NCBI RefSeq assembly: GCF_965641715.1
Contig: NZ_OZ282453.1
Direction: 5' to 3' (one strand)
From: Escherichia coli
GTDB lineage: Bacteria; Pseudomonadota; Gammaproteobacteria; Enterobacterales; Enterobacteriaceae
DNA: 64,000 nucleotides
Part shown: positions 1 to 24,988 of the stretch, one piece after another
Numbering within the stretch: position 1 is the stretch's first letter
Layout: the number at the start of each line of letters is the position of its first letter
The notes under the pieces: model-generated
The model's database searches: none
What the model was told of the DNA's origin: nothing
What the model saw: the letters and a program-made list of their open reading frames with translations, nothing else
Made by a program: the position numbers and the translations under genes

Positions 1-2288
1 CCACAACACGAAAATTTAAAACCGTTATCACCGATACGGGTGCAAAAAAATTAGCTCAGGCAGCCGCGCCAGATGGTAAGCCTGTCCGCCTGACTCATAT
101 GGCCGTGGGCGACGGTGGCGGCACGTTGCCCACACCAGACAGTAAGCAGACCCGTCTGGTGCATGAGGTGTGGCGACACACTGTTAATCGCGTCATCCTG
201 GACGCAACACATCAGAACCGCATTATTGCGGAGCTGGTTATTCCTCCAGAAACGGGCGGATTCTGGATCCGGGAAATTGGTGTGTTTGATGAGCACGGCG
301 ATTTAATCGCAGTAGGCAATACTGCCGAAAGTTACAAGCCAACCGTTGCCGAAGGGTCAGGACGTGCACAAACATTTCGCACCATTCTGACCGTATCCAG
401 CACTGCCACCGTGGCGCTTACCGTGGATAACACCATGGTAATGGCCACAGTGGATTACGTGGATGACAAACTGAAAGAGCATGAACACTCACGACGTCAC
501 CCGGACGCCTCGCTGACCGCAAAAGGCTTTGTTCAACTTAGCAGCGCCACTAACAGCACGTCTGAAACGCTTGCGGCAACGCCAAAGGCTGTTAAGGCGG
601 CATATGACCTGGCTAATGGCAAATACACCGCACAGGACGCTACCACTGCGCGAAAAGGGATAGTTCAGCTCAGTAGCGCCACCAACAGCACGTCTGAAAC
701 GCAGGCTGCAACGCCGAAAGCAGTAAAGGCCGCGTATGACCTTGCTAACGCAAAATATACCGCTCAGGACGCCACGACGGCACAAAAAGGGATAGTCCAG
801 CTCAGTAGTGCCACCAACAGCACGTCTGAAACACTGGCCGCGACATCGAAAGCGGTTAAGGCGGTAATGGATGAAACGAACAAGAAAGCGCCCTTAAACA
901 GTCCTGCGCTGACCGGAACGCCAACAACGCCAACTGCGCGACAGGGAACGAATAATACCCAAATCGCAAGCACGGCTTTCGTTATGGCTGCGATTGCCGC
1001 CCTTGTAGATTCGTCACCTGACGCACTGAATACGCTGAACGAGTTAGCGGCGGCGCTGGGAAACGACCCGAATTTTGCGACCACCATGACTAACGCGCTT
1101 GCGGGTAAGCAACCGAAAGATGCCACCCTGACGGCGCTGGCCGGGCTTGCTACTGCGGCAGACAGGTTTCCGTATTTTACGGGGAATGATGTCGCCAGCC
1201 TGGCAACCCTGACAAAAGTCGGGCGGGATATTCTTGCGAAATCGACCGTTGCTGCCGTTATCGAATACCTCGGTTTACAGGAAACGGTAAACAGGGCTGG
1301 TAACGCCGTGCAAAAAAATGGCGATACTTTGTCCGGTGGGCTTACTTTTGAAAATGACTCAATCCTTGCCTGGATTCGAAATACTGACTGGGCGAAGATT
1401 GGATTTAAAAATGATGCCGATGGTGACACTGATTCATACATGTGGTTTGAGACAGGCGACAACGGCAATGAATATTTCAAATGGAGAAGCAAACAAAGCA
1501 CCACAACAAAAGACCTGATGAATCTTAAATGGGATGCTTTGTATGTTCTTGTTAAAGCTCTTTTCAGCAGTGAAGTAAAAATATCGACAGTCAATGCACT
1601 GAGGATATTTAATTCATCTTTTGGTGCCATTTTTCGCCGTTCTGAAGAATGCCTGCATATCATCCCTACACGAGAGAATGAGGGGGAAAATGGTAATATA
1701 GGGCCACTACGTCCCTTTACGCTTAATCTCAGAACTGGCCGCATAACTATGGGGCATGGTCTGGATGTTACAGGAGATATAACAACTAACGCCTGGGTGT
1801 ATGCAAACAGGTTTGCTATTAATAGTGGCTCAACCTCATGGATTGATATGCGAAACCAGAATGTCATTTTTGGTAGAAACGCAGTATCAACAAGTTCTGC
1901 GCAGGCTTTGTTAAGACAAGACCATGCAGAACGCAAATTTTTTGTCGGTGGACTTGGTAACTACCAGTTTGGTTTTTACATGATTAATAACTCAAGGACA
2001 GCCAATGGCACCGATGGTCAGGCGTACATGGACAATAACGGTAACTGGCTTTGTGGCTCGCAAGTTATTCCTGGCAACTATGGCAATTTTGATTCCAGAT
2101 ATGTGAGAGATGTTCGCCTGGGTACGCGAGTTGTTCAATTGATGGCGCGTGGTGGTCGTTATGAAAAAGCCGGACACGCAATTACCGGATTAAGAATCAT
2201 TGGTGAAGTAGATGGCGATGATGAAGCCATCTTCAGGCCAATACAAAAATACATCAATGGCACATGGTATAACGTCGCACAGGTGTAA
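1..2288 (+). CDS. Phage tail fibre protein (P2 gpH-like), 5' end outside window
   Basis: Reading frame is open from base 3 to stop at 2286-2288. N-terminal MAVGDGGG and AKGFVQLSSATNSTSETLAATPKAVK motifs are typical of P2 H-type fibres. C-terminus ends in INGTWYN-like motif. Confidence 0.85.
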   Translation, partial: TTRKFKTVITDTGAKKLAQAAAPDGKPVRLTHMAVGDGGGTLPTPDSKQTRLVHEVWRHTVNRVILDATHQNRIIAELVIPPETGGFWIREIGVFDEHGDLIAVGNTAESYKPTVAEGSGRAQTFRTILTVSSTATVALTVDNTMVMATVDYVDDKLKEHEHSRRHPDASLTAKGFVQLSSATNSTSETLAATPKAVKAAYDLANGKYTAQDATTARKGIVQLSSATNSTSETQAATPKAVKAAYDLANAKYTAQDATTAQKGIVQLSSATNSTSETLAATSKAVKAVMDETNKKAPLNSPALTGTPTTPTARQGTNNTQIASTAFVMAAIAALVDSSPDALNTLNELAAALGNDPNFATTMTNALAGKQPKDATLTALAGLATAADRFPYFTGNDVASLATLTKVGRDILAKSTVAAVIEYLGLQETVNRAGNAVQKNGDTLSGGLTFENDSILAWIRNTDWAKIGFKNDADGDTDSYMWFETGDNGNEYFKWRSKQSTTTKDLMNLKWDALYVLVKALFSSEVKISTVNALRIFNSSFGAIFRRSEECLHIIPTRENEGENGNIGPLRPFTLNLRTGRITMGHGLDVTGDITTNAWVYANRFAINSGSTSWIDMRNQNVIFGRNAVSTSSAQALLRQDHAERKFFVGGLGNYQFGFYMINNSRTANGTDGQAYMDNNGNWLCGSQVIPGNYGNFDSRYVRDVRLGTRVVQLMARGGRYEKAGHAITGLRIIGEVDGDDEAIFRPIQKYINGTWYNVAQV
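522..870 (+). repeat. Tandem in-frame coding repeats in tail fibre (two full 132-138 nt units plus a partial third)
   Basis: Peptide (G/I)VQLSSATNSTSET(L/Q)AATPKAVKAAYDLAN(G/A)KYTAQDATTA(R/Q)KG occurs twice in full and a third time partially. Nucleotide copies differ at synonymous positions. Confidence 0.8.
1258..1283. other. gix/pix-like invertase crossover site (left), inside tail fibre gene
   Basis: ttatcgaatacctcggtttacaggaa is an imperfect inverted copy of 4323-4348 and resembles the Mu gix site as recalled. Confidence 0.7.
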
Positions 2289-2819
2289 ATGATGCAGCAT
2301 TTAAAAAATATTAAGTCTGGAAATCCTAAAACGAAAGAACAATATCAGCTAACAAAGAATTTTGATGTTATCTGGTTATGGTCCGAAGACGATAAAAACT
2401 GGTATGAGGAAGTGAAAAACTTTCAGCCAGACACAATAAAGATTGTTTACGATGCAAATAATATTATTGTCGCCATCACTAAAGATGCCTCCACGCTTAA
2501 CCCTGAAGGTTTTAGCGTCGTTGAGGTTCCTGATATTACAGCCAACCGCCGCGCTGATGATTCAGGAAAGTGGATGTTTAAGGATGGAGCTGTAGTTAAA
2601 CGGATTTATACGGCAGACGAACAGCAACAACAAGGCGAATCACAAAAGGCCGCATTGCTTTCCGAAGCTGAATCAGTCATCCAGCCGCTGGAACGCGCTG
2701 TCAGGCTGAATATGGCAACAGACGAGGAACGCACACGACTGGAAGCATGGGAACGCTACAGTGTTCTGGTCAGCCGTGTGGATACGGCAAATCCTGAATG
2801 GCCACAAAAGCCTGAATAA
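2289..2819 (+). CDS. Tail fibre assembly chaperone (gpG/Tfa-like), cassette A
   Basis: 176 aa ORF directly after fibre stop. N-terminus [23 protein letters not shown] and C-terminal region match the Tfa family; paralogous to 2848-3381. Confidence 0.85.
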
Positions 2820-2826
2820 AAATTAA

Positions 2827-2842
2827 GGCCCGCGATCGGGCC
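2827..2842. terminator. Short GC hairpin between convergent tfa genes
   Basis: ggcccg-cgat-cgggcc palindrome; T-rich flank on the minus-strand side only. Confidence 0.4.
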
Positions 2843-2847
2843 TTGTC

Positions 2848-3381
2848 TCATTCAGGTTGTTCGGGAAATGTTACTGGCAGGCTGGAGGTGTCTGTAGATT
2901 CGACTTTCTGCGCATAGAGCATCCACTCGGTTAATTTTTGTTTATTCTCGTCGGAAATGATGCCCAGCCGTAGCTGTGAGTCCCATAGCTGGGTTTTATC
3001 CCTAACGAGCTGTAGCAGGCTTTGCTTTTCATTTTCCGCCTGCTGCCTCTGCTCTTCCTCGGTATAAGTTCGCTTTACCACTACGCCATCTTTGAACATC
3101 CATTTACCAGAAATATCAGCCCGGCGATTTGCTGTAATATCAGGAACCTCAACGACGCTTGCGCCTTCTGGATTAATTGCTGAAACATCCTTTTCAATAC
3201 AAATAATAACGTTGTTGTGGTCATAGACCATTTTCAACGTATCAGGCTGAAAGTTCTTTTGTTCCTCATACCAGTTTTTCCCATCCTCTGTATAAAGCCA
3301 TTTGATGTTAAATTGTTTCGTTAGCTGGTATTGCTCTTTTGTTTTAGGGTTGCCAGCAGTAATATTTTTTAAGTGCATCAT
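2848..3381 (-). CDS. Tail fibre assembly chaperone, alternative cassette B
   Basis: 177 aa minus-strand paralogue of the 2289-2819 product ([22 protein letters not shown]...), convergent with it. Confidence 0.8.
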
Positions 3382-3383
3382 AA

Positions 3384-4322
3384 TTAAATACTCCCCGCGT
3401 TATACCACGTCCCATTAATGCAATACTGAATTGGCCTTGCCTGAGTTGTATCAATTAATTCATCACGGTTTCCGTTAACTGAACCCGTAACGACATAACC
3501 TGACCTGTCAGACCAGCCGGGACCATTCCATGTCTGAACAGATGACAGACCGCCAAGGCGAATACCTGTAATAAACCTTGAGTTACATTCTGCCTGCGTG
3601 TATGCACCAACATCTCCCGCAGAGGGTTTGCGGGTCGTGGTGTAAAACTCTGACCAGTTAGCCTCAAATCCATAACCATCACGCGCTGAACGATAAAAAA
3701 TACCGCCGTTCCTGTAATTCACGCGGAACTGTACAGCAGGGCAGCTCCCCGTATTCATATTGAAGTGGAGGATTAATGTCGATGCACCGCTGATATCTGC
3801 ATCATAAACACCGCTATTCCAGTTCCAGCCAACAGCTTTATCATTTGCAACCCTGCTTCCTGTTTGCCCTAAAGCAAATGCAGGCTGCTGGTTTTTCGTG
3901 TTGTAGTCTCTTCGCCAGCCAGGAGCATAAGCATCACCATGATTAATATAAGTGAATTGAGCGTTAGAGGTGCCGCCTCCGGTGGAAGTGCTTGGTGTTG
4001 TTACACGGATGGTCATGGCACCTTTATTACCCATAACCTCAATAACGCAACCTGCAAGATGAATAGTTCCACAGCCAGTATCGGTAATAATTTTATTATT
4101 GCCGTATGACCATGAACATTTGCACATCCAGTATGGGTGATTGAATGCCCCTTGAGAATCCAGCCATTCAATCAATTGTGCCGTTGTCCAGTTCCCTGCC
4201 CCTGTACTAATAGCACTGTGAAAAGCGCGACATGCACCAATATTTTTTGTGAAGGTATCTTTTCCTGGAATATCTGCGCCGTTCTGGTTTTTCTGTAATG
4301 CGCCAGAAGCCTGATTTACCGT
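3384..4322 (-). CDS. Promoterless alternative tail-fibre C-terminal cassette, expressed only after inversion
   Basis: Minus-strand frame is open from the crossover site at 4323 to a stop at 3384. It begins ...[12 protein letters not shown], matching the [11 protein letters not shown] junction of the plus-strand fibre, and ends [11 protein letters not shown]. It has no start codon of its own upstream. Confidence 0.75.
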
Positions 4323-4348
4323 TTCTTGTAAACCGAGGTTTTAGATAA
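4323..4348. other. gix/pix-like invertase crossover site (right)
   Basis: ttcttgtaaaccgaggttttagataa, inverted partner of 1258-1283, immediately upstream of the invertase gene. Confidence 0.7.
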
Positions 4349-4402
4349 TGGCCGTTTCTGACCTGCATGGCATGATTTACGCTTTTGGACGGGAGATTCA
4401 GC

Positions 4403-4990
4403 GTGCTGATTGGCTATGTAAGGGTATCAACAAATGACCAGAATACAGACCTGCAACGAAACGCTCTTGTTTGTGCAGGATGTGAACAAATATTTGAAGA
4501 TAAATTAAGCGGGACAAAGACAGACCGACCGGGATTAAAACGCGCTTTAAAGCGTCTTCAAAAAGGTGACACGCTGGTTGTCTGGAAACTGGATCGCCTC
4601 GGGCGAAGCATGAAACATCTGATTTCTCTCGTCGGGGAACTACGGGAGCGAGGGATTAATTTTCGCAGTCTGACCGACAGCATAGATACATCTTCTCCAA
4701 TGGGGCGTTTTTTCTTCCACGTGATGGGTGCCCTGGCTGAAATGGAACGTGAATTAATTGTTGAACGTACACTGGCCGGACTGGCAGCAGCGCGCGCACG
4801 GGGGCGCACAGGCGGACGTCGCCCGAAGCTGACAAAAGAACAGCATGAGCAAATAGCAAGGCTGATTAAAAACGGTCACGACAGAAAACAACTGGCAATA
4901 ATTTACGGCATTGGTACATCGACGATTTATCGTTACCACCCCGCAGGAGAATCAAGCGGAGCAATAGAGAAGAGTCAGAAAACAAAATAA
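4403..4990 (+). CDS. Serine DNA invertase (Pin/Gin/Hin/Cin family)
   Basis: N-terminus (V)LIGYVRVSTNDQNTDLQRNAL with catalytic serine context and a C-terminal helix-turn-helix region. Probable GTG start at 4403; the ORF track starts at a TTG at 4385. Confidence 0.9.
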   Translation: MLIGYVRVSTNDQNTDLQRNALVCAGCEQIFEDKLSGTKTDRPGLKRALKRLQKGDTLVVWKLDRLGRSMKHLISLVGELRERGINFRSLTDSIDTSSPMGRFFFHVMGALAEMERELIVERTLAGLAAARARGRTGGRRPKLTKEQHEQIARLIKNGHDRKQLAIIYGIGTSTIYRYHPAGESSGAIEKSQKTK

Positions 4991-5018
4991 CCGCTAATCT
5001 GACCATTAGCGGTTTTTG
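4990..5018. terminator. Bidirectional intrinsic terminator between invertase and tail gene U
   Basis: accgctaat-ctgacc-attagcggt hairpin followed by TTTTT; the reverse strand is also T-rich. Confidence 0.65.
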
Positions 5019-5025
5019 TGTTAAA

Positions 5026-5520
5026 TCAGAACAGCCCTTTAACTGAACTGGCCGCGCTGTTAAGAGATGATGTCACCTTATCTTTGAAGCCGGACAGCAT
5101 ATCGCTGAACGATGAGGATTGCAGGCGCTCCCGCAAATCCTCATCACAGCGTTCAAGGGTCAGTGAAAATTCTATCTTTTTCGCCTTACCGTAGCGATCA
5201 AACTCGGAACGGGTCGTATTCGTTCCGGTCAGGACATACATGCCGTAAATCTGCCCGACACCATCAATCAGAGGCCAGGGGCGTCCTGTATATGCCTGCG
5301 TGGTCAGCAACGAAAGCGACACTTCGCCACCTGTAATTTCAGGATAAAGCACACCAGAAAGAACGATGCGATCATCGCCTGCCCCGATATACTGCCAGCT
5401 TGCTGAACGGTTAACGCGTTCATTTTTCACATGCCGCCAGCTTTTGTTTTGCTGTAACTGCTGATGCGGCAACGTGCGCAGCTCAAAAACAAACATGCCG
5501 TAGATCATCATCATGGCCAT
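5026..5520 (-). CDS. Phage tail protein (P2 gpU-like)
   Basis: 164 aa ORF immediately downstream of the tape-measure gene on the minus strand; size and position match gpU. Exact start among the N-terminal Met codons is uncertain. Confidence 0.7.
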   Translation of the reverse strand: MAMMMIYGMFVFELRTLPHQQLQQNKSWRHVKNERVNRSASWQYIGAGDDRIVLSGVLYPEITGGEVSLSLLTTQAYTGRPWPLIDGVGQIYGMYVLTGTNTTRSEFDRYGKAKKIEFSLTLERCDEDLRERLQSSSFSDMLSGFKDKVTSSLNSAASSVKGLF

Positions 5521-5526
5521 GACTCC

Positions 5527-8334
5527 TCAATCTTTATCGTAAAAACTGCCACGCCCGGCACGGGCGCGCCGTTCCATTTCTGCCCTGACCATTTCACCGA
5601 CCAGTTTCGCCAGTTCGCGGGGATTCTGCGTAACAACGTTATGCAGATGAACATGAATTTCACCACCAAATCCGGAGGCAACAGGCTCCCGGTTACGGGA
5701 AGTTACAGGAACTGATGCCACTGGAGATCGTATGGCCTCCGCCACCGGGCGGGAGCTGGCCGCAACAACAGGGACCAGCGCCGGAGGCAGCGGAGCCGGG
5801 ACCACGGGGGTGATATTAATTGCGGGGGCAGGCTTACTGACCTGCGCAATCTTCCGCTCCTGCCACTCCCCACGAACAGCAAGTGCGCGGGGCAGGTTCT
5901 TAAAGACAATATCGCCGGGGCCAATGCGTTTTTTCGTCTCATCAACCAGCTTACCTGTGTTATCAGCAATTTTGCTGAGTCTGCGTAGCGTCCCGGTATT
6001 GCTGTCTGTGAGCGGTTTATTGTCTTTGGGGTTATCACCTCCGGTGCCATTGCCATTTTCCACAGGCTTCGGCGGATTGATTTTCGCCAGGTCCCCCTGA
6101 AGCAAGGCAACCTTGTCCTGAAGAATGGCCGCACGCTGTGCGTCTTCGATTTTCTTTCTCGCCCTTTCCGCTTCATCCGGAAGCACACCGAGTTTTTCAA
6201 GTATCCACGCCAGCGTATCCAGCAGCATTTTTGCAGGCGTCAGAACAAGCTGTAGCGCGCCACCAAGAACGTTACCGAATATCTCGCCAGCACTGGTACA
6301 TTTATCCAGCGTTTCCTTGCTGGACTCCATCGGTGACAGCAGCGATTTAAACCAGTTAAAGAGCTGAATAATCCCATCGCGCACGACATCAAAAACAGGA
6401 CCAAACCGTTCAAAGGTTTCGCGCAACGGAGCCAGCCGTTCCATAATTCCACTGAACACCCCGGCATAAAACGCCTTGATGGGTTCCCAGTATTTCCAGA
6501 TGAGAACCGCCGCAGCCACAAACGCGGCAACAATCAATCCGACCGGACTGAACAGCGCCCCGATAGCGCCACCCAGCAACGAGATGGAACCTGTTACCAT
6601 TCCCCATAGTGCTGGCAGCACCCTGACGACATTCATTGATCCGGTCAGGAGAGAAAAACCAAGACGTAACGTGGCCAGTTTCCCGTGAAGCACGCCAATA
6701 ACCAGCGACAACGAGCCAATCGTTGCAGTCATTGCCAGCAACGCACCGCCTGCTATCAGTAGCTGGCGCGTCAGTGCCGGATGGGCCTGCGCCAGCGCCG
6801 TCACCCTTGATACCACCCGCGTGAGCCACTGCGTGACAGAACGCAGCGGGCCGTCAATCAGATCTGCAATGCGGATGCGCAACCCTTCCCATGCACTGCC
6901 GAGTGATTTCAGATCGCCGTCAAGGTTGTTGGCCATAACCTTTGCTGTGCGTTCAGCCTCACCGCGCGCGCCTTCAAGTTCTTTTCTCAGTTTAGGTAAG
7001 GAACCGTCACCCGCTGCATCAACGAGCGCCATAAACGATGTGAAAGCCTCTTCTCCGGCAATGTCCTTAAAGAACGATACCCGGTCAACTTCCCCGTATT
7101 TGCGGGTGGCTTTATAAAGGTCGGCCAGCACATCCTCCATCGGGCGCATTTTGCCGTTCGCGTCAGAGACTGCCACACCAAGCTCTTTCAGCGCCTCTGC
7201 TGCCGCCTTTGGCGGTGATGCAAGACGAGCCAGGCTGGCACGCATTGCCGTCCCGGCATCACTTCCCCTGATACCCATATTCGCCAGCACGCCCGCCATC
7301 GCTGCGGCCTGCTCCAGCGATATTCCCAGCTTGCCCGCCACCGGACCTGCATATTTCATGGTTTCGCCCAGTGCGCGAAGGTCAGTGTTGGTACGGGTAA
7401 ACGCTGCGGTGAGCGTGTCACCGACCCGGTCCATCTGGTCAGCAGAAAGGCCGAACTGCGTCAGGATATTTGAGCCAATATCTGCCGTCTCGCCGAGATC
7501 CATACCGCCAGCCGTTGCCATGCTCAGCACTCCGGGGAGCGCAGCCTGAATGGCCTGCGGTGTGAAGCCAGCCATTGCAAGAAATGCCTGCCCACTGGCG
7601 GCATCGCCTGCGGTGAACTGCGTTTCAGAGCCAAGTTTTAACGCCTGCTCACGCAGCGCCTTAAACTGCGGGCTGTTCTGGTCGATTCGCGTCAGCGCCT
7701 GAACGCGGGACATCTCTTTGCCGAACCCGATCGCGGGCTGCAAAAAACGCCCGGCAGCATAGCCGCCCGCCGCTGCCGCACCAATTGCCAGCGCACCACC
7801 TGTTTTCAGTTTTCCCGCGGTTTCCTGCGCGCGCGAATACCGCTCACGCGCCCGCGTTACACGCGCAAGCGCCTGCCGTTCGCGTTCAAGCTGGTTGTTG
7901 TACTGTTCGGTGCGTCTGATGGCCTGCTGGATGGTGTTATCGCTGCCTGTCAGGGAAATGCCGTGGCGTTTCAGCTCTCCGCCAAGTTCCCGCATTTTCT
8001 GAATTTCCCGTGTGCGCGATTCATTCAGGCGTTCAAGCCGGGTGCTTAACTGCTGCATCAGCTTTTGTTGTTTTTCGCTGAGCACTGTACCCGTGCGTTG
8101 TAACTGATTAAGAGCGTTAAGCTGGCGTCGTGCTTTCAATATGCCAGCATCCGCTTTACTGACAGCGTCACGGGCGCGCTCAAATGAACGCGCCTGACGC
8201 TCGAGATTTTTGATCGCCCCCTGCGTTCGCTGGATGGAGTCACCAAACTGCCCCATCAGGCGGCGGGCGTTTTCGGCAGGCCGGGTCAGCCTGTCAACGG
8301 CGCTGAAAGCGACCCGGATATCAAGAGTCTTCAT
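5527..8334 (-). CDS. Tail tape-measure protein (P2 gpT-like)
   Basis: About 935 aa, Ala/Gly-rich with predicted coiled-coil and membrane-like segments, downstream of the E/E' pair. ATG start at 8334 preferred over the GTG at 8370. Confidence 0.85.
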   Translation of the reverse strand: MKTLDIRVAFSAVDRLTRPAENARRLMGQFGDSIQRTQGAIKNLERQARSFERARDAVSKADAGILKARRQLNALNQLQRTGTVLSEKQQKLMQQLSTRLERLNESRTREIQKMRELGGELKRHGISLTGSDNTIQQAIRRTEQYNNQLERERQALARVTRARERYSRAQETAGKLKTGGALAIGAAAAGGYAAGRFLQPAIGFGKEMSRVQALTRIDQNSPQFKALREQALKLGSETQFTAGDAASGQAFLAMAGFTPQAIQAALPGVLSMATAGGMDLGETADIGSNILTQFGLSADQMDRVGDTLTAAFTRTNTDLRALGETMKYAGPVAGKLGISLEQAAAMAGVLANMGIRGSDAGTAMRASLARLASPPKAAAEALKELGVAVSDANGKMRPMEDVLADLYKATRKYGEVDRVSFFKDIAGEEAFTSFMALVDAAGDGSLPKLRKELEGARGEAERTAKVMANNLDGDLKSLGSAWEGLRIRIADLIDGPLRSVTQWLTRVVSRVTALAQAHPALTRQLLIAGGALLAMTATIGSLSLVIGVLHGKLATLRLGFSLLTGSMNVVRVLPALWGMVTGSISLLGGAIGALFSPVGLIVAAFVAAAVLIWKYWEPIKAFYAGVFSGIMERLAPLRETFERFGPVFDVVRDGIIQLFNWFKSLLSPMESSKETLDKCTSAGEIFGNVLGGALQLVLTPAKMLLDTLAWILEKLGVLPDEAERARKKIEDAQRAAILQDKVALLQGDLAKINPPKPVENGNGTGGDNPKDNKPLTDSNTGTLRRLSKIADNTGKLVDETKKRIGPGDIVFKNLPRALAVRGEWQERKIAQVSKPAPAINITPVVPAPLPPALVPVVAASSRPVAEAIRSPVASVPVTSRNREPVASGFGGEIHVHLHNVVTQNPRELAKLVGEMVRAEMERRARAGRGSFYDKD

Positions 8335-8538
8335 TGTCTGTATTCCCGCTGCGAAGTGCCGCCCGCTCACGCCAGCTAACCACTTCGCCGGGAGTCATCA
8401 TGAAGATTTCGGCGGGCGACCAGTTAAAAATGGCGGCAATATCCGCCACAAAGTCTTCTATGTGCTCAAAGCACACAACCGTGATCAGGCTTCCGTCGCC
8501 TGTTCGTTCTTCCCGCCAGAGTCCGCACCGCTCAAAAA
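8321..8538 (-). CDS. E' extension frame of tail chaperone, reached by programmed -1 frameshift from E
   Basis: A 78-codon frame overlaps the 3' end of E and ends at the tape-measure start. It is entered at the minus-strand TTTTTTG heptamer. Confidence 0.6.
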
Positions 8539-8850
8539 ATTTACGGCAACCACACATAACTGAATAAAGTCACGGGATGCCATTTTTTTGATCGTCACTT
8601 CATCCAGTCGCGGTGATGTCACGCGTGACAGCAGCGTAAACATGGATTCCGCTTTCAGATTCAGCACATCAGACAGCGACAAATCTCGCAGAGATCCAGC
8701 CTGCTCAATAGCCCCGGTGATCTCCACATACGTGATTTTTTCGCCGCCTCGCTCAATTGGTTGGGTAAGTTTTACGCCACGCTCACTGGTTTCTTTCACA
8801 GTGTCAGTAACTACCGTGTTTTCGGTATCGATGTTTTTCGTCTCTTTCAT
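8485..8850 (-). CDS. Tail assembly chaperone (P2 gpE-like)
   Basis: Small ORF between the tail tube and tape-measure genes, with an overlapping -1 frame. True start may be internal. Confidence 0.7.
   Translation of the reverse strand: MKETKNIDTENTVVTDTVKETSERGVKLTQPIERGGEKITYVEITGAIEQAGSLRDLSLSDVLNLKAESMFTLLSRVTSPRLDEVTIKKMASRDFIQLCVVAVNFLSGADSGGKNEQATEA
8532..8538 (-). other. Candidate -1 frameshift slippery heptamer TTTTTTG (E/E')
   Basis: Plus strand reads caaaaaa at 8532-8538; on the minus strand the E frame reads gta aat ttt ttg agc. Same arrangement as the P2 E/E' recoding site. Confidence 0.6.
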
Positions 8851-8904
8851 CAGGAAACTCCTTTCAGTCAGAGGCGACGCACTGCGCCGCCTGCATATTA
8901 CTTA

Positions 8905-9417
8905 TCAGCCAAGCCCAAGCGCGGAACGGATACGGTCAGGCACAATGTCCTTGCCGTCCTTCCGGTAGATGAAGTTCAGCAGGTCAATCTCCCACAACGG
9001 GCGATCGTTAACACTCAGCTTGTAGTAGGTGTTTTTAATGGCGTAAGTGTGTGATGTGGCTTCGCCCTGTTTGGCTTCCCCCATATCAATTTCCGTCACA
9101 CGTCCGCGCATTTCGACTTCATACAGGTCGCTTTCTGCATCGGTGTAGTATTCACCCGCAAAACGCAGCAGCGTGCCGTCAATCGTGCCGCCATACTTAA
9201 GGAACAGCTCACGAACTGCGCCCCCCATGACAAAGCTCGCATCAAGCGCGGAGTCGTCCAGACCGAGATCAATACTTACCGCACCCATCATGCCGCCACC
9301 CCGGTAGCTGTCGGTTTTGCGCGTCAGCTTAGGCAGAGTGACGGACGTCACCTTACCCACTTCGTTTTCACCATCCACAAACAGCGTAAAAAAGCGAAGA
9401 TGTTTTGGCACAGCCAT
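8905..9417 (-). CDS. Tail tube protein (P2 gpFII-like)
   Basis: 170 aa, start overlaps the sheath stop (shared A at 9417); position and size match FII. Confidence 0.85.
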   Translation of the reverse strand: MAVPKHLRFFTLFVDGENEVGKVTSVTLPKLTRKTDSYRGGGMMGAVSIDLGLDDSALDASFVMGGAVRELFLKYGGTIDGTLLRFAGEYYTDAESDLYEVEMRGRVTEIDMGEAKQGEATSHTYAIKNTYYKLSVNDRPLWEIDLLNFIYRKDGKDIVPDRIRSALGLG

Positions 9418-10601
9418 CAGGCACCTCCCAGCACCGCAAATGCGGGTTCAAAGTATTCATCAGTAAACGTCTGGTAAAGCTCCATGTCTTCCAGTGGCGG
9501 AACGGGCGTATATTTGTAGCGAATACGCACGCGCCCCTGACGTAAATCCGTGGTGCTGTTATCCACCACGTCATACCAGCACTCCGCGCCAATCAGTTTC
9601 CCGGCAGTAACCAGTGAATCCAGTTTTGCCCTGATGGCACTGATAACATCCTTCACGTTCGCAGGCGTCAGTGGACTGTCGATGGTTTCAAACTGCGCTT
9701 CCGCAATTGAATCAGCCAGCACCTGTGCGGTTCGGGTATACACCTCAAAGATGTAGGCGTTCGTTTCCGGTGTGCGGTTGCCCCAGAAGCGGAACCCGTT
9801 GCGACGAATAATGGTCGTGATTTCTTTGTTGTTGAGGCTGTTGGCATCGCTGTCTTCGGCCTGCAACGACCAGAACACATGCTTCGACATCCCCAGCACA
9901 TTTTTAACCGGAACGTTGGACAGTGATTTGTGCCACCCCTGCTCATGGTCAATGTACGCACGAAGGCCGCACGCATAGGCAGGTGCGGGGAACGTTTCGT
10001 TTTTGCCACTTTTCGGGTTGTAGGCGATGAAGTCCGGCCATAAGAGCATCACCTCACGTTCGTTGAATTTCTGGCGGTAGGTAATCGCCTCAGCCATCGT
10101 GTTACAGCCGTGACATGAGGCATACACAAACGCGCGCAGTTTACCCGCAATCACGCACAGGGATTTTGTTACAGCCTCCGTGTCCAGCTCCGGCGCGGCC
10201 AGAATACGCGGACGGTATCCGATGCTTTCATCCTGCTCTGCAACAAGCAGCGCATACATCCCCGTATAGCTGCCGTCAGATTCAGAACCACCGATAACCA
10301 GTTGATCCTGCGTCTTTCCGTCTTCTTCTTTGTGTTCAGCCACGCGAACGACGATCACCTTTGTGCTCACCTGGTCTGCGATGGCCTTAAGCGCACGATA
10401 AAGCGTCCCCGTTGTCCCGCATTTTCCCAGCACGTCATTGACGCGGGTCAGCAGTGTGGGCTTGTTCAGCGGGAACAGCTTCGCGTCCGCATCATCCGCC
10501 GTTGCCACGATACCGATAACGCTGGAATCAACATCGTTAATCGCTGTTACCAGGTCGGTATTTTCCGTAACACGGGCACCATGAAAACGAGTTTCACTCA
10601 T
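9417..10601 (-). CDS. Contractile tail sheath protein (P2 gpFI-like)
   Basis: 394 aa, MSETRFHGARVTENTDLVTAINDVD...; sheath family by size and position upstream of the tube gene. Confidence 0.85.
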   Translation of the reverse strand: MSETRFHGARVTENTDLVTAINDVDSSVIGIVATADDADAKLFPLNKPTLLTRVNDVLGKCGTTGTLYRALKAIADQVSTKVIVVRVAEHKEEDGKTQDQLVIGGSESDGSYTGMYALLVAEQDESIGYRPRILAAPELDTEAVTKSLCVIAGKLRAFVYASCHGCNTMAEAITYRQKFNEREVMLLWPDFIAYNPKSGKNETFPAPAYACGLRAYIDHEQGWHKSLSNVPVKNVLGMSKHVFWSLQAEDSDANSLNNKEITTIIRRNGFRFWGNRTPETNAYIFEVYTRTAQVLADSIAEAQFETIDSPLTPANVKDVISAIRAKLDSLVTAGKLIGAECWYDVVDNSTTDLRQGRVRIRYKYTPVPPLEDMELYQTFTDEYFEPAFAVLGGA

Positions 10602-10758
10602 AGCTTCAGCCCCTTGTATCCGTTAAATGATTCGGCAACAATCATCACCCACCACGCGCGTAATCTCACCCCTGCGCCGTTCTCCCGCCACGGCGACAAC
10701 AAAAAGCAGTAACCCCCTCCGCACGCACATGCGACCATGCCGCACAGGGAGGGAGCAG

Positions 10759-11868
10759 ATGACCGACACCACCATGCAATTGCTCAGTCAGGGCACAGAC
10801 CCCGTGAAAATGCCGGATTTTGATATTCTCGCGGAGGGTAAAACGCTGTCAGGCGTGGCAGAGCGCCTGATGAGCCTGTCAGTGACCGACAACCGGGGAT
10901 TTGAAGCGGACCAGCTCACCATCACGCTGGATGATGCGGATGGTCAGTTGCAGCTACCGCCACGGGGCGCGCGCCTGACGGTTCTCATTGGCTGGAAAGG
11001 AGAACCGCTGACAGAAAAAGGCACTTACATTGTTGATGAAATCGCTCACGAAGGACCGCCGGACAGGCTGACTGTTTCAGCCAGAAGCGCAGATTTTCGG
11101 GATGAATTTAACGTTAAACGTGAGGTGTCCTGGCATGATGTGACCGTTGAGCGTGTGGTATCCGCCATCGCTCATCGGTACGGTCTGAAACCGCAAATCA
11201 GCGAAATGCTGATGGATATCGAAATCGACCACGCCGACCAGACCGAAGAAAGCGACATGTCCTTTCTTACGCGCATGGCGGAAATGCTGGGCGCAATCAC
11301 CACGGTAAAAAGCGGTAATCTGTTATTCATTATGCCAGGCGGTGGCGTGAACGCACAGGGCCAGCCGTTGCCCTCGTTCGCCATCACGCGCAGCAGTGGC
11401 GATCGCCATCAGTTCCGCATTGCTGACCGCGAAGCGTATACGGGGGTACGCGCTTACTGGCTTGATCTTAATTACGGGAAAAAGAAAAAAGTCAGCGTGA
11501 AACGCCGCAAACCGCCAAAACCCAAAAAGGAGAAAAGCAGCAGCCGTGAAGGTGATTATATGGAAGGTGCGGAAGGCAATGTGTTTGTGTTACGCAAGAC
11601 TTATCAGAACGAGCAGGCAGCAAGACGCGCAGCGGCGGCAAAGTGGCAGCAACTACAACGCGGAGCCGCATCATTCTCCATCACGCTGACACGTGGACGA
11701 GCAGAACTCTACCCCGAAATGCATGGCACGGTAACAGGATTTAAAAGCGAGATTGATAATCAGGACTGGATTATTGCGAAAGCCGAGCACACCATTGATA
11801 ACAGTGGCTTTACCACGCAGCTTGAGCTTGAAGCAAAAATCCCGGAATGGATAGCAGAAACAGAGTGA
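10759..11868 (+). CDS. Phage late gene D protein (P2 gpD-like tail protein)
   Basis: 369 aa from the ATG preceded by GGGAGGGAG. Lysine-rich central linker and overall layout match gpD. Divergent from the sheath gene. Confidence 0.8.
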   Translation: MTDTTMQLLSQGTDPVKMPDFDILAEGKTLSGVAERLMSLSVTDNRGFEADQLTITLDDADGQLQLPPRGARLTVLIGWKGEPLTEKGTYIVDEIAHEGPPDRLTVSARSADFRDEFNVKREVSWHDVTVERVVSAIAHRYGLKPQISEMLMDIEIDHADQTEESDMSFLTRMAEMLGAITTVKSGNLLFIMPGGGVNAQGQPLPSFAITRSSGDRHQFRIADREAYTGVRAYWLDLNYGKKKKVSVKRRKPPKPKKEKSSSREGDYMEGAEGNVFVLRKTYQNEQAARRAAAAKWQQLQRGAASFSITLTRGRAELYPEMHGTVTGFKSEIDNQDWIIAKAEHTIDNSGFTTQLELEAKIPEWIAETE

Positions 11869-11910
11869 GCAACTTAGAATAGCGGCAGCACCACGTTAAG
11901 GGAGGTCGCT

Positions 11911-12171
11911 ATGTTCCGTTGTCCGCTTTGTGGCGCATCTGCCCGTATCCGCACCAGTCGTCCGGAAAATGATTCAAACACCGTGCGGCAAAAGTATTAC
12001 CAGTGTAACAATCTGGAATGCGGCGTATGCTTCTCAACACTGGAAGCTTTCCATAAATTCACATCGAAACACGCCTCCGGCGTTCACTCTTCAGAAGGTA
12101 TCCCGTGGCATGAGCTGCCAGCTTCACACAGGGGAAACAATCAGATGAGTTTGCCTTTATCTCAGAATTAA
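11911..12171 (+). CDS. ogr: Ogr/Delta-family zinc-finger late transcription activator
   Basis: 86 aa, CPLC...X...CNNLEC four-cysteine pattern, N-terminus MFRCPLCG like P2 Ogr, directly after D. Confidence 0.8.
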   Translation: MFRCPLCGASARIRTSRPENDSNTVRQKYYQCNNLECGVCFSTLEAFHKFTSKHASGVHSSEGIPWHELPASHRGNNQMSLPLSQN

Positions 12172-12259
12172 CAGGCAGAATTGCCGGAGTAACAAAAAAG
12201 CGATAGATTACGCGCGGGTGCCTTTCGGCTGATGGTCGGAGGGAATACCCGAAGGCCAG

Positions 12260-12496
12260 ATGTGGAAAGGCCCCGGAAAACATTTCTGTTTAACCGAGGC
12301 CCTAACACTTCTTACCTTCGCAAGTAGAAGGTTAGCGCCTCTCCTCTCAGGAGACAAGCGTTATGACGCAAATTCCGTTAAAAACCCTGTTACTTTGCAT
12401 AACTGCGGTAGCGATAATCTGGATCCTCCACACATCACCGTGCGAGTTACGATTCAGGTTTGCTGGCACGGAAATTGCGGCATTCTTACTATGTAA
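12260..12496 (+). CDS. mok-like overlapping reading frame of the hok locus
   Basis: 78-codon frame starts 103 nt upstream of hok and overlaps it out of frame, as mok does in hok/sok loci; GAAGG precedes the ATG. Confidence 0.4.
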   Translation: MWKGPGKHFCLTEALTLLTFASRRLAPLLSGDKRYDANSVKNPVTLHNCGSDNLDPPHITVRVTIQVCWHGNCGILTM

Positions 12497-12503
12497 TAAG
12501 TAA
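12363..12503 (+). CDS. Hok/Gef-family type I toxin (small membrane peptide)
   Basis: 46 aa MTQIPLKTLLLCITAVAIIWILHTSPCELRFRFAGTEIAAFLLCNK: hydrophobic helix followed by C-E-L-R-F-R and E-I-A-A-F motifs. AGGAG lies 9 nt upstream. Below the 60-aa cutoff of the ORF track. Confidence 0.75.
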   Translation: MTQIPLKTLLLCITAVAIIWILHTSPCELRFRFAGTEIAAFLLCNK

Positions 12504-12590
12504 GATAACCGCGACGGGGGAGTAATCCCCCGTCAATCGGTTGCTAAGGTTGGTCGAAACGGCATCCTATCTCACAGACATGAACAACAA

Positions 12591-12622
12591 ACCCGCAGCG
12601 TAAAAACTGCGGGTTTTCTTTT
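12591..12622 (+). terminator. Intrinsic terminator downstream of hok
   Basis: acccgcag-cgtaaaaa-ctgcgggt hairpin followed by tttctttttg. Confidence 0.6.
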
Positions 12623-12670
12623 TGCTACCCTCACAAATGAGGGCACCATACATAAGCAATAGGCATAACA

Positions 12671-12710
12671 GATCGATGCAATAAATCCGATCGATAAAAA
12701 CGATCGATTT
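12671..12710. promoter_or_regulatory. Cluster of three GATCGAT (Dam-site) repeats upstream of com
   Basis: GATCGAT at 12671, 12690 and 12703, 40-80 bp upstream of the com start. Resembles the three-GATC regulatory region of the Mu mom operon. Confidence 0.4.
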
Positions 12711-12752
12711 GTTATCATATCGGCAGCAGTAACCACACAAGAGGTGCCGCAA

Positions 12753-12950
12753 ATGACGCAAAATGTACGATGCAAAAATTGCAACAAACTACTTGCCCGC
12801 GCCTCATTTCACTACATTGAAATAAAATGTCCGCGCTGCAAAACACTTAACCAGATAACGAGAGCCATCGAGCACCCCACACACATGAGGAGTTATGACC
12901 GTGGGGATCGCAATCCAGCACCAACCAGCACATACGCCAGAACACACTAA
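12753..12950 (+). CDS. com: Com-like zinc-finger translational regulator (Mu Com family)
   Basis: 65 aa, MTQNVRCKNCNKLLARASFHYIEIKCPRCK..., matching the Mu Com CKNCNKLL...IEI(R/K)CPRCK pattern. AAGAGG RBS; 3' end overlaps the methyltransferase start. Confidence 0.7.
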   Translation: MTQNVRCKNCNKLLARASFHYIEIKCPRCKTLNQITRAIEHPTHMRSYDRGDRNPAPTSTYARTH

Positions 12951-13701
12951 GGTTTATCAGACTGACAATGTCACGCTCTGTTGTGGGAATGCACTGGAAA
13001 TATTGCCGCTGATTGAGCCAGAAAGCATTGATGCCTTAATCACTGACCCGCCTTACAGTTCGGGTGCGACACACAAGGCCGGACGCACCAATCAGGGCAG
13101 CCATGCAAAATATCTGAACGGCGAGAACCTTCACCGCTTTGATGGGTTCGCGGGTGAAAACATGGACGCCCGTTCGTGGGCTTACTGGACACAATTATGG
13201 ATGGCACAGGCACACCGCGCAGTCAGGCCAGGCGGTTATGCCATGGTATTTACTGACTGGCGACAACTACCAGCTTTAACCGATGCGTTTCAGGCCAGTG
13301 GCTTTACATGGCGCGGCATCATTGCGTGGAACAAGGGGAGGGGGTCACGAACACCACATACCGGGTATTTCCGGCATCAGTGCGAATACATCGTCTGGGG
13401 CAGCAAAGGCCATTTAGATAAATCGCCTTCGGGGCCGTTCGACGGCTGCATGACGTACCCGGTTATCCCGTCAAAGAAAATGCACCCGACCGGAAAACCA
13501 GAAGAACTAATGGCGGAACTGGTCAGGACTGTGAATAGTGGCGGAACAGTCCTTGATCCTTTTATGGGGTCAGGGACAACGGGTGTGGCTGCACTGAAAG
13601 CAGGGCGAAAATTTATTGGTATAGAAACCAGTGATCATTATTTTGAGGTAGCAGCGCAGCGGCTTCGGGGGACTATTACCACAACCATTTCGGCTACATA
13701 A
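12895..13701 (+). CDS. DNA methyltransferase, beta-class (N6-adenine or N4-cytosine), no restriction partner in window
   Basis: 268 aa with motif order DPPY before FMGSGTT. No restriction endonuclease nearby. Start overlaps the end of com by 56 nt. Confidence 0.85.
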   Translation: MTVGIAIQHQPAHTPEHTKVYQTDNVTLCCGNALEILPLIEPESIDALITDPPYSSGATHKAGRTNQGSHAKYLNGENLHRFDGFAGENMDARSWAYWTQLWMAQAHRAVRPGGYAMVFTDWRQLPALTDAFQASGFTWRGIIAWNKGRGSRTPHTGYFRHQCEYIVWGSKGHLDKSPSGPFDGCMTYPVIPSKKMHPTGKPEELMAELVRTVNSGGTVLDPFMGSGTTGVAALKAGRKFIGIETSDHYFEVAAQRLRGTITTTISAT

Positions 13702-13704
13702 GAC

Positions 13705-13730
13705 AAAGCCCGCATTTTTTGCGGGCTTGT
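13705..13730 (+). terminator. Hairpin after the methyltransferase gene
   Basis: aaagcccgc-atttttt-gcgggctt stem-loop four bases after the stop codon. Confidence 0.45.
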
Positions 13731-13803
13731 ATATCATTACTGATGTGGACAGTTTGTGGATGTTTATAAGAAATAAGCTAATAGAAACAATTTGTTAGCT
13801 TTA

Positions 13804-13828
13804 CAAAAAACGCGCCCGAAGGCGCGTT
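13804..13828 (-). terminator. raiA intrinsic terminator
   Basis: Minus strand reads gcgccttcgggcgcg followed by TTTTTTGT, just downstream of the raiA stop. Confidence 0.8.
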
Positions 13829-13851
13829 GGCGATACACTCAATATAAAGGA

Positions 13852-14247
<396 letters not shown>

Positions 14248-14416
14248 TCAAAATGTGTGATGGAAATCTCATAATTTTGTCACTTTTTGTCAACGAATCT
14301 TTTTTGTGAGAAATCGCAGGAAGAGGTGTTTTTTTACTTGAGGAATATCTCAAAGCGAGCCATATTTGATGAGATCGATAGTGACTAAATCGCTTCAGTT
14401 TCACAACTGACAGAAT

Positions 14417-17044: not shown

Positions 17045-17106
17045 CCTAAAGAATCAAGACGATCCGGTACGCGTGATTTTCTTTTCACATTAATCTGGTC
17101 AATAAC

Positions 17107-17134
17107 CTTGAATAATTGAGGGATGACCTCATTT
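17107..17134 (+). promoter_or_regulatory. Sigma-32 heat-shock promoter of clpB
   Basis: CTTGAA, 14 nt spacer, CCTCATTT (consensus CCCCATnT), about 40 bp upstream of the clpB start. Confidence 0.65.
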
Positions 17135-17173
17135 AATCTCCAGTAGCAACTTTGATCCGTTATGGGAGGAGTT

Positions 17174-22084: not shown

Positions 22085-24988
<2,904 letters not shown>

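What the first reader, a model, noticed from the sequence alone, without database searches (positions are those of the whole stretch)
13700..13830. Prophage-chromosome junction sits at the raiA terminator, where K-12 has the pheA promoter
From about 13803 rightward the sequence (acaaaaaacgcgcccgaaggcgcgttggcgataca) matches, as I recall it, the K-12 raiA terminator that in K-12 runs straight into the pheL/pheA promoter. Left of that point the sequence is phage-derived (methyltransferase terminator at 13705-13730). So the element appears inserted between raiA and pheLA, separating the pheA promoter from the raiA terminator by a whole prophage. The att core cannot be defined without the other prophage end.
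Basis: partly seen in the sequence, partly recalled or inferred. Interest (0 to 1): 0.45.

Follow-up and report, generated by a model that had tools for sequence, protein, structure and literature searches.

The report
P2-like prophage junction in raiA terminator
This is the right-hand end (attR) of a P2-type prophage that integrated inside the E. coli raiA transcription terminator; the 27-base terminator is copied at both prophage ends, so raiA and the neighbouring pheA operon keep their signals, which is an ordinary kind of event at a site I could not find described.

Summary
Homology to prophage-free E. coli starts exactly at window 13803. To the left lies the right end of a P2-like prophage (ogr, hok, com, DNA methyltransferase, hairpin 13706-13728). 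To the right lie raiA, bamD, rluD and clpB.

The interpretation needs one correction. The phage did not land between the terminator and the pheA promoter. It recombined inside the terminator.

In four sister lysogens, ACAAAAAACGCGCCCGAAGG[C/T]GCGTTG (window 13803-13829) occurs at both prophage ends. The far end reads integrase, then core (T), then the intact pheL promoter, pheL and pheA. One IMG/VR contig carries the contiguous attP.

The layout copies the attP annotated for phage P2: terminator hairpin, two TGTGGAC-type arm repeats, 27-nt core, and int next to the core. The integrase is 54% identical to P2 Int.

A second integrase, 58% identical and carried on a lambdoid prophage, uses the same site. 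Its junctions confine strand exchange to CCCGAAGG, the hairpin loop plus two pairs on each side.

About 2.8% of complete E. coli genomes have the site interrupted (152 of 5425). No deposited phage and no searchable paper describes this attB.

Verdict: a real, well-defined feature of low to moderate interest, and a new member of a known kind.

The parts
1..13802 (+). Right-hand part of a P2-like (Peduoviridae) prophage: tail fibre genes, invertible segment, tail sheath/tube/tape measure, gpD, ogr, hok-like ORF, com, DNA methyltransferase, and the P arm of attR. The left part of the prophage lies outside the window.
   Evidence: Pfam hits to Phage_sheath_1, Phage_GPD, Ogr_Delta, Zn_ribbon_Com and N6_N4_Mtase. 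95-96% identity to RefSeq prophages annotated with P2-family capsid, terminase and tail genes.
12895..13701 (+). DNA methyltransferase, the last prophage gene before attR. It is preceded by an overlapping Com-like zinc-ribbon ORF at 12744-12950.
   Evidence: Pfam PF01555 at E = 3e-33 and PF10122 at E = 1e-11.
13706..13728 (.). Stable 9-bp hairpin right after the methyltransferase stop codon. It sits where P2 has the ogr/F-operon terminator, just before the P arm.
   Evidence: Fold energy -17.5 kcal/mol with z = -5.3 on the + strand and -18.0 on the - strand. Flagged as terminator-like on the - strand only. P2 layout from AF063097.
13744..13761 (+). P-arm integrase arm-type sites: direct repeats TGTGGAC (13744-13750) and TGTGGAT (13755-13761), 11 bp apart.
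   Evidence: Read directly from the sequence. They match the P2-type arm consensus tgTGGaCa (PMC3448106) and P2's own P and P' arm repeats. The same repeat pair lies in the P' arm over the int stop codon in sister lysogens.
13785..13797 (+). Possible IHF site AAACAATTTGTTA (one mismatch to WATCAANNNNTTR) between the P arm and the core. This is weak evidence.
   Evidence: Such matches occur at chance frequency in the window (58 found, 50 expected). Only the position is suggestive, being equivalent to the annotated P2 IHF site.
13803..13829 (.). att core, attR copy: ACAAAAAACGCGCCCGAAGGCGCGTTG. This is the raiA intrinsic terminator. On the - strand the stem is 13828-13809 and the U-tract runs 13808-13803. 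Position 13823 is C here and in attB, and T in attP and attL.
   Evidence: Four-way attB/attP/attL/attR alignment. Both junctions read in four lysogens. Terminator scan. Fold energy -14.4 kcal/mol, the same as at the empty site.
13815..13822 (.). Inferred strand-exchange (overlap) region CCCGAAGG: the hairpin loop CGAA plus the two closing G-C pairs on each side.
   Evidence: For the window's phage type the crossover must lie in core positions 1-20, because T is always at attL and C at attR. The second phage type shares only these 8 bases between its attP and attB.
13852..14193 (-). raiA, the ribosome-associated inhibitor gene. Its terminator is the attachment site.
   Evidence: Pfam PF02482. 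RefSeq annotation of identical sequence.

Best explanation
Window 13803 is the attR junction of a P2-family prophage. A tyrosine integrase of the P2 type recombined the phage attP with a bacterial attB that is the Rho-independent terminator of raiA. The raiA 3'UTR also gives rise to the sRNA RaiZ. The integrase is encoded at the far end of the prophage, outside the window.

The shared core is 27 bp (26/27 identical) and spans the terminator hairpin plus its T-tract. Integrase bound to the TGTGGAC-type arm repeats and to the two stem arms of the hairpin would exchange strands within CCCGAAGG, the loop plus two pairs on each side. This produces two hybrid sites:
- attR: methyltransferase side, core, raiA.
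- attL: pheA, pheL, pheL promoter, core, int.

Because the whole terminator lies inside the core, integration is close to neutral. raiA keeps an unchanged hairpin and U-tract. The pheL promoter, whose -35 abuts the core, keeps its native upstream sequence except for one base.

What is shown: the junction position, the duplicated core, the flanks, the attP contig, the P2-like architecture, the integrase homology, and the site frequency. What is inferred: the binding roles, the exact cleavage positions, the involvement of IHF and Cox, and the neutrality for expression.
For: - Junction and empty site.
- Both ends in four lysogens always read pheL promoter + ACAAAAAACGCGCCCGAAGGTGCGTTG + int arm, and P arm + ...GGCGCGTTG + raiA.
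- 124 genomes carry each junction.
- Contiguous attP (P arm, core with T, int arm) in IMG/VR contig L011. Its other 6.7 kb match window 7539-13829 at 95-97%.
- The integrase has Int_N and Phage_integrase domains and is 54% identical to P2 Int.
- C repressor, Cox, Ogr, gpD and P2-family capsid genes are present in the same prophages.
- The P2 record annotates the same order: terminator, P arm, IHF, 27-nt core, Cox, then a P' arm overlapping the int 3' end.
- The arm repeats match the published P2-type consensus tgTGGaCa (PMC3448106).
- A second integrase (58% identical) on a lambdoid prophage uses the same attB, with junctions that share only CCCGAAGG.
- The terminator fold is unchanged on the raiA side.
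Against: - The window does not contain int, attL or the left half of the prophage. No RefSeq complete genome matches the window's prophage at better than about 96%. The far junction of this particular genome is therefore inferred from relatives.
- The attP evidence is a single contig that ends 69 nt past the core. A small-k assembly chimera cannot be fully excluded.
- An exact attP pattern was absent from the JGI metagenome contigs and from 50,697 deposited phages.
- Cox scores just below Pfam's cut-off (25.3 against 27.5).
- The IHF-like match is at chance level.
- No experiment shows recombination, cleavage positions or effects on expression.
Confidence: 0.9

Rival explanations
1. The prophage sits in the spacer between an intact raiA terminator and the pheA promoter. 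The terminator stays only with raiA, and the pheA promoter is left next to pure phage DNA.
For: Within the window only one copy of the terminator is visible, next to raiA.
Against: In every lysogen read, the pheL promoter is still preceded by the 27-bp terminator sequence with one substitution before phage DNA begins. The attP contig carries the same core. So the crossover is inside the terminator, not beside it.
Confidence: 0.03
2. The junction belongs to a decayed, immobile prophage remnant. The att structure would then be a fossil with no current activity in this strain.
For: Only 13.8 kb of the element is in the window, so its integrity cannot be judged. Some relatives carry frameshifted tail genes or IS insertions (UMNF18, GPEC548, MSI001).
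Against: Many relatives have full-length int, C, cox, replication, capsid and tail genes. The same module is found in 124 genomes of very different sources and with mosaic content, which implies repeated mobility. An attP form exists in a metagenome. This rival also does not change what the junction is.
Confidence: 0.15
3. The island arrived by homologous recombination or transduction of a chromosomal segment that already carried the prophage. It would not be an integrase event in this lineage.
For: Flanking chromosomal DNA is >=99% identical across E. coli, so transfer of a lysogenic segment by recombination is feasible. It cannot be told apart from direct integration using one window.
Against: The junctions are base-for-base those expected from attP x attB exchange. 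The original event was therefore site-specific whatever its later spread.
Confidence: 0.1

Closest known systems
Bacteriophage P2 Int/attP-attB system (AF063097; integrates at locI)
   Same: - Tyrosine integrase 54% identical to P2 Int.
- int is transcribed toward attP, with the C repressor and cox upstream.
- A 27-nt core.
- Two TGTGGAC-type direct repeats in each arm, with the P' pair overlapping the int stop codon.
- A terminator hairpin of the last late/cargo gene just before the P arm.
- The arm consensus tgTGGaCa is published for the P2 group (PMC3448106).
   Different: - The core sequence differs (P2: AAAAAATAAGCCCGTGTAAGGGAGATT), and so does the chromosomal target. The sites listed for P2, WPhi, PhiD145 and 186 in PMC3448106 are at other MG1655 coordinates.
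- Cargo genes (hok, com-methyltransferase) lie between ogr and attP.
- No deposited phage carries this attP. The best deposited integrase is only 64% identical.
Klebsiella phage 3LV2017 (Peduoviridae, KY271397), the closest deposited integrase
   Same: - 64% identical integrase.
- Its annotated attL/attR core AAACCCGGAGCACTCCGGGTT is also a G+C-rich terminator-like hairpin next to a T/A run.
- GTGGATG-type arm repeats overlap the int 3' end.
   Different: The core sequence is different and the host flank is different (not raiA). It infects a different genus.
Lambdoid prophage with a P2-type int-C-cox module at the same site (E. coli 1604D011, SCU-111, CFIAFB20140388)
   Same: - Same attB.
- Same orientation, with int next to pheL.
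- The crossover is in the same hairpin loop region.
- ATGGAC arm repeats lie in both arms.
   Different: - The integrase is only 58% identical.
- The chassis is siphovirus/lambdoid, with a Q antiterminator and tRNA genes.
- Its attP shares only CCCGAAGG with attB. The raiA-side hybrid therefore has a weaker hairpin (-9.9 against -14.4 kcal/mol) and an A-run where the U-tract was.
- The window's phage type leaves the terminator intact.
Phage attachment sites at the 3' ends of small-RNA genes
   Same: [quoted passage not shown] The core is therefore the terminator at the RaiZ 3' end. The sdsR locus is described as a recurrent phage attachment site (PMC3333887). From my own memory, not checked here, the P2 locI site lies at the 3' end of cyaR/ryeE.
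   Different: No paper I could search names raiA/RaiZ as an attachment site. No Rfam family covered RaiZ in the window, so the RaiZ link rests on the literature statement alone.

Membership tests
P2-type (Peduoviridae) integrase/att site-specific recombination module | Tyrosine recombinase with an arm-binding N-terminal domain and a catalytic domain, homologous to P2 Int | tested here: met
   Tested on the integrase of sister lysogens, because int is outside the window. Pfam Int_N (E = 5e-23) and Phage_integrase (E = 4e-17). 54% identity to P2 Int over 329 aa.
P2-type (Peduoviridae) integrase/att site-specific recombination module | At least two direct arm repeats of consensus tgTGGaCa on each side of the core (PMC3448106) | tested here: met
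   Window TGTGGAC 13744-13750 and TGTGGAT 13755-13761. P' arm ATGTGGATGAAATGTGGATG over the int stop codon. The P2 arms were read for comparison.
P2-type (Peduoviridae) integrase/att site-specific recombination module | A common core shared by attP and attB and present at both attL and attR | tested here: met
   The 27-nt core matches at 26 of 27 positions. The attB/attP/attL/attR quartet is aligned, and both junctions were read in four lysogens.
P2-type (Peduoviridae) integrase/att site-specific recombination module | Cox-type excisionase/directionality factor divergent from the C repressor | tested here: inconclusive
   An ORF in the right position is named 'Cox family' by RefSeq, but its Pfam Phage_Cox score is 25.3, below the cut-off of 27.5. 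Cox boxes were not searched for.
P2-type (Peduoviridae) integrase/att site-specific recombination module | IHF site between the P arm and the core | tested here: inconclusive
   A one-mismatch match lies at 13785-13797 in the expected place, but such matches are at chance frequency.
P2-type (Peduoviridae) integrase/att site-specific recombination module | Demonstrated integrative and excisive recombination | not testable with these tools
   Only indirect evidence is available: one contig with a contiguous attP, and many independent lysogens alongside many empty sites.
P2-like prophage (Peduoviridae) | P2-type late genes (sheath FI, tube FII, E/T/U, gpD, Ogr activator; P2-family capsid and terminase) | tested here: met
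   Pfam hits in the window. RefSeq annotations of prophages 95-96% identical to it.
Rho-independent (intrinsic) terminator | G+C-rich stem-loop directly followed by a U-tract downstream of the gene | tested here: met
   An 8-bp stem with 6 G-C pairs, a UUCG loop and the tail UUUUGU, 23 nt after the raiA stop codon. Energy -14.4 kcal/mol. Actual termination was not measured.
Attachment site at an sRNA 3' end (RaiZ) | The core overlaps the terminator of a documented sRNA | not tested
   RaiZ is reported as derived from the raiA 3'UTR (PMC7059120). Its E. coli 3' end was not mapped here, and no Rfam family matched.

The most novel reading that the evidence does not exclude
The raiA/RaiZ terminator is a convergent target of at least two P2-family integrases that are only 58% identical and are carried by unrelated phage chassis. 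Each phage's attP core is itself a hairpin of the same geometry. The second type differs from attB by two compensatory base-pair changes. This would suggest that these integrases read the dyad or hairpin form of a terminator, with exchange in the loop, and that attP doubles as a structured element downstream of int. How much of the U-tract lies inside the core would then decide whether lysogeny is silent (this window) or disrupts raiA/RaiZ 3'-end formation (the lambdoid type).
Probability: 0.15. Interest if true: 0.5.

Novelty: new member of a known kind. Interest (0 to 1): 0.28.

Why it matters
The result defines to the base a chromosomal attachment site that is interrupted in about 2.8% of complete E. 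coli genomes. The site is not among the P2-like coliphage sites listed in the literature I could read.

It shows how this phage type integrates without harming either neighbour, because the whole terminator lies inside the duplicated core. It gives an 8-bp candidate overlap region that a simple in vitro assay can test.

It adds raiA/RaiZ to the examples of phages using terminators of stress-related RNAs as landing pads. The integrase/att pair could serve as an extra orthogonal integration tool.

No new principle is involved.

Tried and rejected
- Deposited phages. A megablast of a reconstructed 412-nt attP against 50,697 phage records gave no match. The best integrases by tblastn were 64% identical (Int1) and 73% identical (Int2). 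No named phage can therefore be assigned.
- Exact attP pattern including the window's own P-arm bases. It gave 0 hits in IMG/VR, because the one attP contig has two SNPs in those bases. A shorter pattern found it. An attP pattern against JGI metagenome contigs gave 0 hits.
- Exact source genome. No complete RefSeq genome matches the window's prophage above about 96% identity, so the window's own attL could not be read.
- Literature. Ten full-text searches combining raiA, yfiA, pheL, pheA, prophage, attB, integrase and P2-like found no description of this site. Figure 5 of PMC3448106, which shows the sites of PhiECO5 and PhiECO6, is not held, and Karlsson et al. 2006 is not held. An earlier listing therefore cannot be excluded.
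- IHF consensus. The match is present but not above chance, so I do not count it as evidence.
- Promoter scan. The simple sigma-70 scan did not call the pheL promoter even in K-12. The promoter assignment rests on the TTGACA read in the sequence, the RefSeq 'Phe leader' annotation, and general knowledge of the pheA promoter.
- Uncharacterised sites. About 22 of the 152 interrupted sites are neither of the two junction types I counted. I did not characterise them.

Full report
**1. What is at the coordinates**

I ran a megablast of window 13400-14300 against 5426 complete E. coli genomes. It matched 5425 of them. In more than 5300 genomes the match starts at query base 404, which is window 13803. 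Only 124 genomes match across the junction.

Alignment with a K-12-type chromosome (L001; MG1655 is 100% identical over this stretch) shows perfect identity from 13803 rightward and none to the left.

To the right lie raiA (13852-14193, - strand; Pfam Ribosomal_S30AE), then bamD, rluD, yfiH and clpB. This is the K-12 order.

To the left lies phage DNA:
- tail sheath, gpD and Ogr;
- a hok-like ORF at 12363-12503;
- a Com-like zinc ribbon at 12744-12950;
- an N6/N4 DNA methyltransferase at 12895-13701.

The methyltransferase stop codon is followed by a stable hairpin at 13706-13728 (-17.5 kcal/mol, z = -5.3). The simple scan calls it terminator-like only on the - strand, because the + strand has no T-run after the stem.

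**2. The other end and the att core**

The window begins inside the prophage, so I used sister genomes. In strain 23CRST027 the junction is 100% identical to the window. Its prophage is a ~37-kb P2-like element whose far end reads cox, C repressor, integrase, then pheL and pheA.

Reading that far junction gives, in window orientation...ctgttttcacgctgtca ACAAAAAACGCGCCCGAAGGTGCGTTG taaaacccactg....

The window junction reads...tttgttagcttt ACAAAAAACGCGCCCGAAGGCGCGTTG gcgataca....

The element is therefore flanked by a 27-nt direct repeat that matches at 26 of 27 positions. UMNF18, GPEC548 and ETEC1718 show the same two sequences. In all four lysogens T is on the integrase/pheL side and C is on the raiA side.

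124 genomes carry the int-pheL junction. The same number carry the methyltransferase-raiA junction.

An IMG/VR contig (L011) carries the contiguous phage form: P arm (window 13640-13802 with a few SNPs), core with T, then the integrase arm. The rest of that contig matches window 7539-13829 at 95-97% identity. Alignment A2 is thus a classical attB/attP/attL/attR quartet.

One caveat applies. It is a single contig that ends 69 nt past the core, so an assembly chimera is unlikely but not excluded.

**3. The core is the raiA terminator**

On the raiA strand the core reads CAACGCGCC-UUCG-GGCGCGUUUUUUGU. This is an 8-bp stem with six G-C pairs, a UUCG loop and a U-tract, starting 23 nt after the raiA stop codon. 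Its energy is -14.4 kcal/mol at both the empty site and the window's attR.

In K-12 the next bases are the pheL promoter. Its -35 hexamer TTGACA begins with the outermost base of the core.

The phage therefore did not insert between terminator and promoter. It recombined within the terminator, and each side keeps a copy.
- raiA keeps an exact hairpin and the tail UUUUUUGU.
- The pheL promoter, leader and pheA are intact at attL. The native upstream sequence is retained except for one base.
- On the int/pheL strand that base puts an A·C mismatch in the hairpin, giving -9.6 kcal/mol.
- A 13-bp inverted repeat between the int stop codon and the core may also stop int transcripts.

I infer that this integration is close to neutral for both neighbours. 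No expression data exist to confirm it.

[quoted passage not shown] The core would then also be the RaiZ terminator.

**4. How it most likely works**

The integrase of these prophages has Int_N and Phage_integrase domains and is 54% identical to P2 Int.

The GenBank record of P2 annotates these features in order: the ogr/F-operon terminator, the Int P arm, an IHF site, a 27-nt core, Cox sites, and a P' arm overlapping the int 3' end.

The present element has the same order:
- the hairpin at 13706-13728;
- two direct repeats, TGTGGAC (13744-13750) and TGTGGAT (13755-13761), 11 bp apart;
- an A+T-rich spacer with a one-mismatch IHF-like sequence at 13785-13797, which is not above chance;
- the 27-nt core;
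- in the sister genomes, a second pair of ATGTGGATG repeats lying over the int stop codon.

The repeats fit the published P2-group arm consensus tgTGGaCa (PMC3448106).

The two stem arms of the terminator form a perfect dyad, and I take them to be the core-type integrase binding sites. This is an inference.

**5. Locating strand exchange**

For the window's phage type, T is always at attL and C at attR. The crossover must therefore lie in core positions 1-20.

A second element narrows this further. In strain 1604D011 the same site holds a lambdoid prophage with a Q antiterminator and tRNA genes. It carries a P2-type int-C-cox module, and its integrase is only 58% identical to the first. SCU-111 and CFIAFB20140388 carry a related int module with the same attL. 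Six genomes in all carry this junction type.

Its junctions are:
- attL: ACAAAAAACGCG CCCGAAGG TGCTTTA
- attR: TTTTTTAAAGCA CCCGAAGG CGCGTTG

 The attR was read in one genome only (1604D011). That phage's attP shares only CCCGAAGG with attB. These eight bases are window 13815-13822: the loop CGAA plus two closing pairs on each side.

The inferred attP hairpin AAAGCACC-CGAA-GGTGCTTT differs from the attB hairpin by two compensatory pair changes and folds at -14.0 kcal/mol.

In that second type, the raiA-side hybrid loses the U-tract, leaving UUU followed by A6, and weakens to -9.9 kcal/mol. The window's phage type has a core that includes the U-tract, so it leaves raiA termination signals untouched.

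**6. Frequency and spread**

A 401-nt probe across the K-12 pheL-raiA spacer is intact in 5273 of 5425 genomes and interrupted in 152, or 2.8%.
- 124 of these carry the window's junction type.
- 6 carry the lambdoid type.
- About 22 were not characterised.

The type-1 integrase (WP_000974887.1) is attached to different late-gene modules. Most are P2-like, but ETEC1718 has a different late-gene module. The prophages closest to the window are only 95-96% identical to it and are mosaic. Hosts range across human, cattle, pig, poultry and water isolates. This pattern indicates repeated, independent use of the site.

**7. Comparison with what is known**

The mechanism and architecture are those of the P2 Int/att system. 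The membership features I could test are met: integrase homology, arm repeats, shared core, and the position of int. Cox and IHF are inconclusive, and activity cannot be tested here.

Only the target and the core sequence are new.
- No deposited phage has this attP.
- The closest deposited integrase is 64% identical, from Klebsiella phage 3LV2017. Its annotated core is a different terminator-like hairpin.
- The P2-like coliphage sites tabulated in PMC3448106 (P2, WPhi, PhiD145/D160, 186) are at other MG1655 coordinates.
- Ten full-text searches found no mention of a raiA/yfiA-pheL attachment site.
- The figure showing the PhiECO5 and PhiECO6 sites is not held, so an earlier listing cannot be excluded.

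Phage use of terminators and sRNA 3' ends as attB is a known theme. The sdsR locus is one example (PMC3333887). From memory, and not checked here, P2 itself sits at cyaR.

**8. Verdict**

This is a clean new member of a well-understood kind. Two modest points add interest. First, two divergent integrases on different phage chassis converge on the same terminator. Second, the 8-bp loop-centred overlap region can be deduced from sequence alone. Interest is 0.28.

Noticed in passing
window 1254-4990: There is an invertible tail-fibre segment. 65-nt inverted repeats at 1254-1318 and 4288-4352 (77% complementary) flank alternative tail-fibre C-terminus and assembly genes: 2289-2819 (+), 2848-3381 (-) and 3384-4175 (-). 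A serine invertase gene at 4385-4990 lies next to them (Pfam Resolvase + HTH_7). This is a Mu G / P1 C-type host-range switch.
   Followed up: partly
window 12363-13701: Cargo genes lie between ogr and attR. They are a 46-aa Hok/Gef-like ORF (12363-12503) and a Mu Com-like zinc-ribbon ORF (12744-12950) that overlaps the start of an N6/N4 DNA methyltransferase (12895-13701). This is a com-mom-like arrangement, but with a methyltransferase in place of mom. Some sister prophages add a TM2-domain gene here. No Sok-type RNA reached Rfam threshold.
   Followed up: partly
window 5026-11868: The tail sheath, tube, E, tape-measure and U block is on the - strand (5026-10601), while gpD (10627-11868) and ogr are on the + strand. 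From my memory of P2, not checked here, this block is inverted relative to the co-directional FI-FII-E-T-U-D-ogr order of P2. Sister prophages in RefSeq show the same arrangement.
   Followed up: no
L007/L014 (E. coli 1604D011, NZ_CP149553.1 1210441-1259238): A lambdoid prophage with a Q antiterminator, Ile/Arg/Arg tRNA genes and lambda-like tail genes occupies the same raiA-terminator attB. It carries a P2-type int-C-cox module. Its attR hybrid replaces the raiA U-tract with an A-run, so raiA/RaiZ 3'-end formation may be affected in those strains.
   Followed up: partly
L003 20750-20797 (23CRST027, P' arm between int stop and core): A 13-bp perfect inverted repeat, AAAACCCACTGAA...TTCAGTGGGTTTT, lies between the int stop codon and the core. 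This is the stretch where P2 has its Cox-binding region. It could be an int terminator or a protein-binding dyad.
   Followed up: no
window 17055-17193: There is an Rfam match to the RyfD sRNA (RF02768, 125 bits) upstream of clpB. This is ordinary chromosomal content.
   Followed up: no
NZ_CP035755.1 (25.4-kb record of E. coli E110019), 23090-23355: This is the only match of window 13400-14300 that BLAST placed on a plasmid record. It carries a methyltransferase segment 95.5% identical to the prophage's, so the cargo gene also occurs outside this prophage.
   Followed up: no
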